Part shown: positions 17,101 through 20,100 of the stretch, one piece after another
How positions within the stretch are numbered: position 1 is the stretch's first letter
Layout of the letters: every line of letters begins with the position of its first letter
From: the human T2T-CHM13v2.0 reference genome, Homo sapiens
Assembly: GCF_009914755.1 (NCBI RefSeq)
Contig: NC_060939.1
DNA length: 64,000 nucleotides
Direction: 5' to 3' (one strand)
Program-made: the position numbers and the translations under genes
Notes under the pieces: generated by a model
Database searches by the model: none
What the model saw: only the letters and a program-made list of their open reading frames with translations
Told to the model about the DNA's origin: nothing

Positions 17101-20100
17101 CCACCACCTCTGTGGACAAGGGACACTCTTCCCACCAGGGAAGACTAGGCTGTGCAGAGCCATCAGGGATACAGAATCAGAGATGGCAGTTCACTTCGAC
17201 TGCTGTACGAATCTGTAGGAGTTGCAGCATAGCTGATGTGAAGTGAGATGATACAAATAACACAAAGGACACAAACTACAAACCCTGCAGCTTGCAGCCA
17301 TGGTCGGTTTAGCACAGGATGCAGAGGCTCAGGCAAGAAGATGTTCTGCCCTGTCCTACTCAAGCTGCTGCCCACATCTGAAGGGATACAGTGAGGTGCC
17401 TCACTGCAGCAGGAGGCAAGCTCCACAGCCAGCTGCCAAGATATGTCCCTGGGAGGCCAGGACCTAAGACAAGGCAGCAGATGCCAAGAGAGGCTGGAAC
17501 CTGAAGAAAACCACCAGCTGAGATCTGTGAAATTCTGTAACAGTGCCATTACCTCCAAGAGTCTCTTCCTCTGGAGCTCCTTGCTTTGTCCCTCCATCAT
17601 GTGCAATCCAGAGAGGACCACCAGGTCTGGCTGAAACTCCTCCAGGCTAGACACAAACACCTCCAGCATATTCATGGCCCCGTTGGAGAGGTCGTGAGAG
17701 AAGATGAATCGGTTGGCATGGGGAGCTTTTAACTGGCCCCACTCCTCCCCTGGAAAAACCCAGTCAACACAATGGGAAGAAAAGGAAGAGGCTTTAGGTC
17801 TCCTAGCTGTGGGGGCACTTTCAGGCACCTCACAGGAGCCTTGGCTCCAAGCAGGCTGGTTTCTGGCTGAGGAGACCCCAGCAACAATGGCCTAAGGTCA
17901 GCATGGCACTGCAAGAAACAAACCAAAAACCTAAACCCAAACCCAGCCAAGAAACAGAAACATAGTATGGGTGCTATATGCCTTTTTCAAGGTAATTAGC
18001 TCCCCCTGAGTCCCAGGAGAGCCCTACTTGAGCTCTCAAACACAGGAGAGACAGTACAGAATGGCAGCATGACTTCCAAATACCAGCATACAGTGTGCAG
18101 CACGCACGCCCTGCAGACAGTATAGGCTGTCATTGTTTAAAGCACATTCTTCCTCACAGCATTGCCCTGAGCATCTTTCATTCAGTTGGAACTTAAGCAG
18201 GCTGAATTTCTTCCCAACAGCCAAGCTCACTGCATCTCCTCTTCCCTGCTGCCCATCAGTGGTTTCTGGGCACCTGATCCAAAGGATCAGACTATCTAGC
18301 TGCTCCAGTTGCTTCTATGTGAGTTGCTTTAGAGGAATGACTGTTTAAAGACCCAAGTTCAAGTGCTAGTTCCTCCCTAAACATGAAGCCTTTCCTAATC
18401 CTACCACCCCTAAGCAGACTTGATTACCTCCTTTCTGGGGCCACCACTGTACCCTAATACAGGACTGAGGCACATGATTTTGCAATTCCTTTTTCTTTTT
18501 TCCTTTTTTTTTTTTTTTTTCTTCTGAGATGGAGTTTCACTCTGTTGCCCAGGTTGGAGCGCAATGGCGCGACCTCAGCTCACTGCAACCTCTGCCTCCC
18601 AGGTTCAAGCGATTCTCCTGCCTCAGCCTCCCGAGTAGCTGGGATTACAGGTACCCGCCACCACGCCTGGCTAATTTTTGTATTTTCAGTAGAGACGGAG
18701 TTTCACCATGTTGGCCAGGCTGGTCTTAAACTCCTGACCTCAGGTGATCTGCCTGCCTTAGCCTCCCAAAGTGCTGGGATTACAGGCGTGAGCCACCATG
18801 CCCGGCCTGCAATTACTTTTTCCAAGTGTCTATCTCTGGCAGTAAACTGTGAGCTGAGGGCAGGGCCTGTGTCATCCTCTGTCGTATTCCTTCTGCATCA
18901 TGCTGTGTCTGGCATATAGCCATGGGAATGAATTAACAAAAGAACAAGCAAATAAGAGAACAGACTGATGACCTAAATGCCCATGACAACAAAAAATATG
19001 GGTATGAACCCCAAATCCAACATTTTGCAAATCAACAAAGACTCTGTACGATGGGAAAAATACATTACATTGACATTCTCCAGAGAGCAAGACGTGGACT
19101 CAACCCTTGAATAGTGACACTGCTAGGAAACACGACCTAACTGAACCTAGGAGAAAGGAGCCACACTGTATTGAAAATACACTGATTTCTTCAGGAAGTG
19201 ACAGAGGCAAAAATAAACAGGCTCTTCTGCAAGGCAAGGATGAGAAGAACCGTGCAGAGCTGCTTGCTGTTTCCACAGGAAACAAGGCAGCAGATGCCAA
19301 GAGAGGCTGGAACCTGAAGAAAACCACCAGCTGAGATCTGTGAAATTCTGTAACAGTGCCATTACCTCCAAGAGTCTCTTCCTCTGGAGCTCCTTGCTTT
19401 GTCCCTCCATCATGTGCAATCCAGAAAGGACCACCAGGTCTGGCTGAAACTCCTCCAGGCTAGACACAAACACCTCCAGCATATTCATGGCCCCGTTGGA
19501 GAGGCCATGCAGGGGGCAGATGCAAATGGATCTAATTCTGCCTGTAATGGTAGTTAGCGCCCCTCTTTCCTCACAAAGTGTTGTATTCATTCCTGTAAGC
19601 AATCTCTTCTCAATGTATCATCCTGCCCTCAGCCAGTAAGTCAGCAAAACCTCTGCGTAGTGACTCACTGGATTCCCAGCCCAAGCCTGACAATGGGCTT
19701 CTCTGGGGAGATCTGGTAAGAGAGAATGTGGAAAAAAAAATGGACAAATCCCTTGGAATTTCCCTATTGAGGTCAGAGACAAGCTGGGAATGGATTTCTG
19801 TTGAGAGAGCTGAGCCCAGGGCTACTGCCACTAGACTAGGCTCCCTCCTTGGACCTAGGAAAATGTCACCTCACAAAGTTTAATGGAAGTCCACTGCTTT
19901 GTATGCAGAAGAGGCATAGGAAAGAAAAACTGAAGTGTGAAGCTTATAAACCCAAGGATGGAGACACTCTCTTTGTGCGGTGAACTGTGCTGTCTCCTTA
20001 ACTACATACGAGGCACAGCTGTCCAATACAACATCAAAGTCTTGCTGAAGACATAAGACTCTCCACTCTGTAGTCACCAGGAAAAATGACAAACCAGGAA

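What the first reader, a model, noticed from the sequence alone, without database searches (positions are those of the whole stretch)
19282..19557. Very young duplicate of ADPGK exon 5 in intron 4 that could form an in-frame alternative exon lacking Arg228
Seen: 19282-19504 matches 17469-17691 at 222/223 nt. It covers 139 nt of exon 5, the intact donor GAG|GTAATG (19366/19365) and 84 nt of intron 5. Just upstream on the transcript strand the host intron reads GCGCTAACTACCATTACAG|GC, with a branch-like CTAAC at 19557-19553 and AG at 19543-19542. That AG defines a 176-nt exon (19366-19541) with the same phases as exon 5 (phase 1 in, phase 0 out) and no stop codon. Splicing 4>copy>6 would replace [19 protein letters not shown] with [12 protein letters not shown] (7 aa shorter). 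Known: this removes Arg228 of the NRF motif, a conserved active-site arginine of ADP-dependent kinases. Inference: used instead of exon 5 it would give a probably inactive isoform; used together with exon 5 it would frameshift, acting as an NMD poison exon. Caveats: the branch A is only 12 nt from the AG and the pyrimidine tract is weak.
Basis: partly seen in the sequence, partly recalled or inferred. Interest (0 to 1): 0.8.

Follow-up and report, generated by a model that had tools for sequence, protein, structure and literature searches.

The report
Partial exon 5 copy inside ADPGK
A nearly identical 223-base copy of part of exon 5 of the human ADPGK gene, with its splice donor, sits in the preceding intron; it probably does little beyond giving rare side transcripts a place to splice from.

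Summary
Window 19282-19504 matches 17469-17691 at 222 of 223 bases (E 1e-112). The only difference is at 19426, and the match ends sharply on both sides. The whole T2T genome holds only these two copies. Two independent database ORFs cross the copy's two junctions, so misassembly is unlikely.

Arg228 is lost, and it was invariant in 125 of 125 family representatives that cover it.

The proposed 176-nt cassette exon is doubtful. Its acceptor at 19541 has the poorest pyrimidine tract of any acceptor in the gene, and its branch point lies 12 nt from the AG. RefSeq already has an exon that uses the copied donor, 19366-19590. That exon has GA rather than AG before it and starts exactly at an in-frame ATG. 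It therefore looks like a 5'-terminal exon, possibly a computed model, giving at best a 292-aa truncated ORF.

The last 60 nt before both donors are identical, so short junction reads cannot tell them apart.

Best reading: a recent local insertion that left an orphan donor, mostly neutral. Neither its age nor its use could be tested here.

The parts
19282..19504 (-). Duplicate: the last 139 nt of exon 5, its donor, and the first 84 nt of intron 5, lying in intron 4
   Evidence: 222/223 identical to 17469-17691, E 1e-112; sharp ends
17469..17691 (-). Source segment: the 3' part of the true exon 5 and the start of intron 5
   Evidence: exon 5 is 17553-17749 in the hub annotation and reads in frame
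19426..19426 (-). Only base that differs: T in the copy on the transcript strand, C at 17613 in exon 5. Synonymous.
19360..19368 (-). Copied 5' splice site GAG|GTAATG; the exon ends at 19366
   Evidence: identical to the exon 5 donor
19366..19590 (-). RefSeq exon of another ADPGK transcript (hub table). GA rather than AG precedes it, and it begins with ATG at 19590-19588, so it is probably a 5'-terminal exon.
   Evidence: the 75-aa frame is open; Pfam PF04587 matches residues 31-72
19618..19620 (-). In-frame TGA 10 codons before that ATG, which makes it the first possible start of the frame
19541..19557 (-).
   Evidence: weak pyrimidine tract and a short branch distance
19592..19594 (-). A second AG (19594-19593) that would give a 227-nt exon in the same phase with an open frame (507-aa product). 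It is even weaker.
   Evidence: 7/18 pyrimidines and an AG-free zone of 9 nt
17709..17711 (-). Codon of Arg228 (CGA) in the true exon 5. It lies 5' of the duplicated part, so it is absent from the copy.

Best explanation
A single local DNA-level event copied 223 bp into intron 4, 1813 bp upstream and in the same orientation. The copied piece is the 3' two thirds of ADPGK exon 5, its 5' splice site, and the first 84 nt of intron 5. The copy brought a full-strength donor and an exon body, but no 3' splice site and not the first 58 nt of the exon, which encode the invariant Arg228. It therefore acts as an orphan donor. RNA that starts in intron 4, or rarely pre-mRNA that uses a weak upstream AG, can splice from 19366 to downstream exons. 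The RefSeq exon 19366-19590 is such a 5'-terminal exon. Spliced to exon 6 it gives a 292-aa ORF that lacks roughly the first 170 of 430 positions of the kinase domain. Spliced to exon 5 it gives 81 aa. These products are most likely inactive by-products, and the insertion is close to neutral. Shown here: the copy, its limits, the frames, the weak acceptors, and the shape of the annotated exon. Inferred: the mechanism of insertion, the low level of use, and neutrality.
For: The copy is real, with sharp ends, and the whole genome holds only these two places. A 92-aa database ORF from a 649-nt contig is identical to window 19599-19327 and crosses the 5' junction. A 99-aa ORF from a 496-nt contig is identical over 90 aa to window 19488-19219 and crosses the 3' junction; it matches the true exon 5 read-through over only 69 aa. 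The copy includes intron sequence and has no poly(A), so it arose at the DNA level and not from mRNA. No native acceptor was copied. Both in-frame AGs upstream have poorer pyrimidine tracts than all 8 annotated acceptors of the gene. The annotated exon has GA before it and starts at the first ATG after an in-frame TGA. Another 'other transcript' exon, 41503-41520, likewise lacks an AG. There is no CpG island near 19300-20300: CpG observed/expected is 0 to 0.3, against 0.9 at the main promoter. Pfam matches only profile positions 170-213 of 430 in the copy exon. The arginine of NRF is R in 124 of 124 representatives that cover it, plus P0126.
Against: The copied donor and 139 nt of exon body come from a constitutive exon, so exon definition could activate the weak AG at 19541. 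That site has a perfect CTAAC and a TTACAG|G junction. Three AGs (19541, 19562, 19592) keep the frame open and in phase, which leaves the cassette reading possible. I saw no transcript data, so 'low level of use' is inference. I could not see which RefSeq accession holds the exon, nor its evidence.
Confidence: 0.55

Rival explanations
1. One reading: the AG at 19543-19542 and the copied donor define a 176-nt cassette exon. Used instead of exon 5, it gives a 490-aa ADPGK without Arg228. Used together with exon 5, it is an NMD-triggering poison exon.
For: Same phases as exon 5 and an open frame. The swap of 19 aa for 12 aa is confirmed, and a premature stop falls 275 nt before the last junction when exon 5 is kept. 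The donor and exon body are identical to those of a constitutive exon. CTAAC lies 12 nt from the AG.
Against: The pyrimidine tract is the weakest in the gene apart from the 19592 site: 10/18 with a longest run of 4. The only branch-like site lies at the extreme short end of usual distances. RefSeq's exon with this donor starts at 19590, not 19541 (hub table). An open 12-codon host stretch is expected by chance. Six paper searches on ADPGK with terms for duplicated, alternative or cryptic exons, NMD or human specificity found nothing on such an exon (passages).
Confidence: 0.15
2. The copied donor is never really used, and the RefSeq exon 19366-19590 is a by-product of the duplication. Exon 5>exon 6 junction reads map equally well to 19366>16956. 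Together with intronic read coverage, they yield a computed model that was started at the first ATG.
For: The 60 nt before both donors (19366-19425 and 17553-17612) are identical. The exon starts exactly at the ATG with no AG and no 5' UTR. Predicted macaque isoforms in the protein database likewise start inside intron 4, just before exon 5 (P0010), which shows that such intron-start models are produced.
Against: A donor identical to a constitutive one should be usable whenever RNA covers it. I could not see the evidence behind the RefSeq model.
Confidence: 0.2
3. The duplicate is old and is kept nearly identical by gene conversion with exon 5. It would then not be a young or human-lineage event.
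For: The two are direct repeats only 1.8 kb apart, and one copy is under purifying selection and can act as a conversion donor. One difference in 223 allows up to about 12 to 25 million years even without conversion.
Against: The ends are sharp and there is no trace of decayed homology outside the 223 nt. The 84 intronic bases are as identical as the exonic ones. No annotated protein of another species in the databases carries the host-derived 29 aa: one search found 1 of 53 hits with full coverage, and that is the window's own ORF; one search found none. Clustering at 90% identity could hide such an isoform.
Confidence: 0.15
4. The copy is an assembly error of this genome.
For: None found.
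Against: Two independent short database contigs cross the two junctions. A RefSeq exon includes 86 nt of unique host sequence joined to the copy (hub table).
Confidence: 0.02

Closest known systems
Tandem exon duplication giving mutually exclusive exons
   Same: An intragenic, same-strand copy of an exon close to its source. A candidate exon of the same phase could replace exon 5.
   Different: Only the 3' 139 of 197 nt were copied. There is no native acceptor, and the replaced part holds an invariant residue. No evidence of mutually exclusive use was seen.
Poison (NMD) cassette exons
   Same: Inclusion together with exon 5 shifts the frame and gives a stop 275 nt before the last junction.
   Different: The acceptor is weak, the annotated exon is not a cassette, and no inclusion data are available. 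I recall that well-known poison exons are typically old and conserved; this copy looks recent.
Alternative first exons from intronic starts
   Same: The RefSeq exon 19366-19590 has no AG before it, begins at an ATG and ends at a donor.
   Different: The donor and two thirds of the exon are a copy of a downstream exon. There is no CpG island, and no start-site data could be consulted.
Short templated insertions or local duplications from break repair or replication template switching
   Same: Sharp ends, a nearby template, the same orientation, near identity, intron sequence included, and no poly(A).
   Different: The empty site is unknown, so microhomology and any deleted bases cannot be read. 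The mechanism is inferred only.

Membership tests
Tandem exon duplication / mutually exclusive exon pair | The whole exon is duplicated with both splice sites | tested here: not met
   The copy starts 58 nt inside exon 5 and lacks the acceptor
Tandem exon duplication / mutually exclusive exon pair | Same phase, so that either copy keeps the frame | tested here: met
   The 176-, 197- and 227-nt versions are all 2 mod 3 and open
Tandem exon duplication / mutually exclusive exon pair | Transcripts carry one copy or the other | not testable with these tools
   No transcript data are held
Poison (NMD) cassette exon | Functional 3' and 5' splice sites on both sides | tested here: inconclusive
   The donor is identical to that of exon 5. 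The acceptor has 10/18 pyrimidines and a branch 12 nt from the AG. No scoring model is on hand.
Poison (NMD) cassette exon | Inclusion gives a stop more than about 50 nt before the last junction | tested here: met
   Stop at codon 280, 275 nt before the last junction
Poison (NMD) cassette exon | Inclusion is seen, and rises when NMD is blocked | not testable with these tools
   No RNA data. The paper searches gave nothing on it.
Alternative first exon | No 3' splice site at its 5' end | tested here: met
   GA precedes 19590
Alternative first exon | A transcription start is mapped there | not testable with these tools
   Only composition could be checked: there is no CpG island
ADP-dependent kinase domain (Pfam PF04587) as an active enzyme | Domain match | tested here: met
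   The copy exon matches profile positions 170-213 of 430, E 1.1e-10, but that is only a fragment
ADP-dependent kinase domain (Pfam PF04587) as an active enzyme | The invariant arginine of the N/S/T-R-F motif (Arg228) | tested here: not met
   It is absent from every product that uses the copy in place of exon 5. It is R in 124/124 representatives plus P0126.

The most novel reading that the evidence does not exclude
A partial exon duplication that arose in the human or ape lineage has created a new ADPGK transcript form that is actually used. It would be either a catalytically dead protein without Arg228 (490 aa or 292 aa) that modulates the enzyme or its ER function, or an NMD switch that tunes ADPGK levels. 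The two 223-bp repeats might also mediate recurrent 1.8-kb deletions that remove the start of exon 5.
Probability: 0.07. Interest if true: 0.6.

Novelty: new member of a known kind. Interest (0 to 1): 0.3.

Why it matters
There are three practical points.

1. The identical 60 nt before the two donors make exon 5>exon 6 junction reads ambiguous. ADPGK isoform calls and the RefSeq exon 19366-19590 should therefore be checked with reads that cross 19426 or the 19504/19505 boundary.

2. If the copy is confined to humans or apes, it is a clean, datable example of how a duplicated donor seeds a new exon.

3. Any product that uses the copy in place of exon 5 lacks an arginine that is invariant across the family, so it should not be counted as active enzyme.

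None of this changes what is known about ADPGK function.

Tried and rejected
- **A larger 1.8-kb tandem duplication.** Two Alus (18498-18740 and 20230-20471) lie 1731 nt apart, close to the 1813-nt spacing of the exon copies. They are only 81-91% alike, and nothing between them matches, so I rejected this.
- **Retrocopy origin.** Rejected, because intron sequence is included and there is no poly(A).
- **Hairpins or inverted repeats at the junctions.** Only one 10-nt pair was found, which is not telling.
- **A third copy elsewhere in the genome.** None was found.
- **Independent DNA of the copy in prokaryote-genome and viral contig collections.** Pattern matches occurred, 24 and 6 stretches, but none was confirmed.
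- **A protein with the host-derived N-terminus among longer database proteins.** There were 2 candidates and none scored. Among 120 listed ADPGK relatives, none holds the copy-specific peptides.
- **The role of Arg228 in print.**
  - The 2016 J Biol Chem paper on the mouse structure (PMC4759153) is not held.
  - Searches for Arg228, Arg-228 and R228 with ADPGK gave 0 papers, or 0 occurrences in the listed papers. One search returned only unrelated papers.
  - The 2024 review has no occurrence of isoform, splic-, exon or Arg.
  - The T. litoralis paper describes an Arg202 over the active-site pocket (passages), but I did not establish that it is the same column.
  - 'Active-site' therefore remains recalled, not checked.
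- **Splice-site scoring.** No MaxEntScan or SpliceAI is on hand, so I used only pyrimidine counts and AG-free zones.

Full report
**The observation**

Reading both places on the transcript (minus) strand shows the same sequence, from CCTCTCCAACGG to CTGCCTTGT.
- The repeat finder reports a 228-nt pair at 99% identity with spacing 1813.
- blastn trims this to 19282-19504 against 17469-17691: 223 nt, 1 mismatch, no gap, E 1.05e-112. Nothing else from 18900-20000 matches anywhere in the window better than E 0.71.
- The one difference is at 19426, T in the copy and C at 17613 in exon 5, and it is synonymous.
- Outside the 223 nt the two places are unrelated.
- The copy holds the last 139 nt of exon 5, the donor GAG|GTAATG, and 84 nt of intron 5.
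- A search of the whole assembly with 19200-19700 finds only the copy and exon 5. The event is therefore local, and the flanking intron is single-copy.

**Is the copy real?**

A search of the protein database with the 75-aa reading of 19366-19590 returned 53 hits, and only one covered the full length.
- That hit is P0121, 92 aa, from a 649-nt contig. It is identical to the window's unspliced frame over 91 residues (19599-19327), so it crosses the junction from host intron to copy.
- P0132 (99 aa, from a 496-nt contig) is identical over 90 residues to 19488-19219, so it crosses the junction from copy to host intron. It matches the read-through of the true exon 5 over only 69 residues.
- These are independent sequences holding both junctions. 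The RefSeq exon in the hub table also joins 86 nt of unique host sequence to the copy.
- A misassembly is therefore very unlikely.

- The annotated CDS reads as 497 aa. Exon 5 encodes residues 215-280, with phase 1 in and phase 0 out, and residues 227-229 are N-R-F.
Keeping exon 5 as well gives a stop at codon 280, 275 nt before the last junction.
- The Arg228 codon (17709-17711) lies 5' of the duplicated part.
- Conservation of the arginine:
  - I ran an exhaustive profile-free search with the exon 5 peptide. It gave 224 representatives at E 0.001 or better, of which 150 were listed.
  - I examined 133 of the 150. Of these, 124 cover the motif, and all 124 have R there, as NRF, SRF, TRF, NRV, NRY, NRL, TRL or NRI.
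  - Of the 17 left out, 16 have no NRF; their listed matches begin at query residue 18 or later, past the motif. The remaining one, P0126, has NRF.
  - Archaeal structures 1L2L, 5O0I and 5O0J align with the same NRF motif, though weakly (E 0.35). Mouse 5CCF/5CK7 matches 63 of the 65 exon 5 residues.
- That the arginine acts in the active site is something I recall from the paper on the mouse structure, which is not held. I could not confirm it in any paper I could read.

**What the annotation adds**

The hub table lists an exon 19366-19590 in another ADPGK transcript. It uses the copied donor.
- Its 5' end is preceded by GA, not AG. Its first three bases are ATG, in frame with the copy and with exon 6. 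An in-frame TGA lies 10 codons upstream.
- It therefore has the shape of a 5'-terminal exon, and most likely of a model that was started at its start codon.
- Spliced to exon 6 it gives a 292-aa ORF; spliced to exon 5 it gives 81 aa.
- Pfam sees only profile positions 170-213 of 430 in this exon. The 292-aa product would lack the N-terminal anchor, the small-domain part and Arg228.
- No CpG island lies nearby.
- Another exon of 'other transcripts', 41503-41520, also lacks an AG. Predicted macaque isoforms in the database start inside intron 4 just before exon 5 (P0010). Intron-start models are evidently common for this gene.

**The cassette idea**

I compared the candidate acceptors with the 8 annotated acceptors of the gene.

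| Acceptor | Pyrimidines at -20..-3 | Longest pyrimidine run | Other |
|---|---|---|---|
| 8 annotated acceptors | 12-16 of 18 | 5 or more | |
| Second in-frame AG, 19592 (227-nt exon, open frame, 507 aa) | 7 of 18 | 3 | AG-free zone 9 nt |

- An open frame over 12 to 29 host codons is expected by chance.
- The exon body and donor come from a constitutive exon, so some activation of a weak AG by exon definition cannot be excluded.
- I have no scoring model and no RNA data.

**A caveat for anyone who checks this with RNA-seq**

The 60 nt before both donors are identical. A short exon 5>exon 6 junction read therefore fits 19366>16956 equally well. The RefSeq exon could itself rest on such reads plus intronic coverage. 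Only reads that cross 19426 or the 19504/19505 boundary can tell the two apart.

**Origin and age**
- The copy includes intron sequence and has no poly(A), so it arose from DNA and not from mRNA.
- The sharp ends, the same orientation and the nearby template fit a templated insertion during break repair or a replication template switch. Without the empty site, no microhomology can be read.
- A larger tandem duplication was considered because two Alus have a similar spacing. I rejected it.
- One difference in 223 gives 2.2 to 4.5 million years at rates of 1e-9 and 0.5e-9 per site per year, which are my assumed rates. The 95% range is 0.06 to 25 million years. Gene conversion could make an older copy look young.
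- No primate genome is reachable with these tools.

**Literature**

None of the ten paper searches found a description of this duplicate or of an exon in intron 4. The six aimed at it paired ADPGK with these terms:
- exon duplication: 0 papers
- mutually exclusive exons: 4 papers, three read as passages and one seen as title and abstract only, none relevant
- nonsense-mediated decay: 4 papers (passages)
- cryptic exon: 1 paper (passage)
- human-specific: 5 papers, seen as titles and abstracts only

Supplementary tables of splicing surveys were not searched.

**Verdict**

Its most likely role is an orphan donor used, if at all, by minor transcripts that start in the intron. The specific cassette exon is possible but weakly supported. 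The exon is already in RefSeq in another form; its origin as a copy of exon 5 seems not to be in print.

Noticed in passing
window 14194-14197 (acceptor of the last exon): A tandem acceptor, TTAG|CAG|, gives the two annotated ends 14197 and 14194, which add or drop one Gln. A mouse long-read study reports the matching Adpgk isoform lacking Gln313 (PMC12940955, passages).
   Followed up: partly
protein P0001, residues about 224-330: A predicted Acipenser sinensis protein of 555 aa, labelled UNVERIFIED_CONTAM by its source, repeats most of the segment encoded by exon 5 in tandem and in frame. NRF occurs at 228 and 286. This is either an independent duplication of the same exon or an assembly or annotation error.
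   Followed up: no
window 17750-17880 (3' end of intron 4): Predicted macaque isoform X3 (P0010, 336 aa) and the fragment P0122 begin in a frame that reads through the exon 5 acceptor from inside intron 4. Intron-start models therefore exist for this gene in other primates.
   Followed up: no
window 41503-41520: An 18-nt exon of another transcript has no AG before it and a GTAAGT donor after it, so it is a very short first exon. Its internal ATG is out of phase with exon 2.
   Followed up: no
window 17469-17691 and 19282-19504: These are two direct repeats of 223 bp with identical blocks of 144 and 78 bp, lying 1.8 kb apart. Unequal recombination between them would delete or duplicate the start of exon 5 together with its acceptor. 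This is inference only and was not checked in variant catalogues.
   Followed up: no
window 18481-18813 and 20221-20533: Two Alu elements lie in sense orientation relative to ADPGK. They are 81-91% alike, and their spacing (1731) is by chance close to that of the exon copies.
   Followed up: yes
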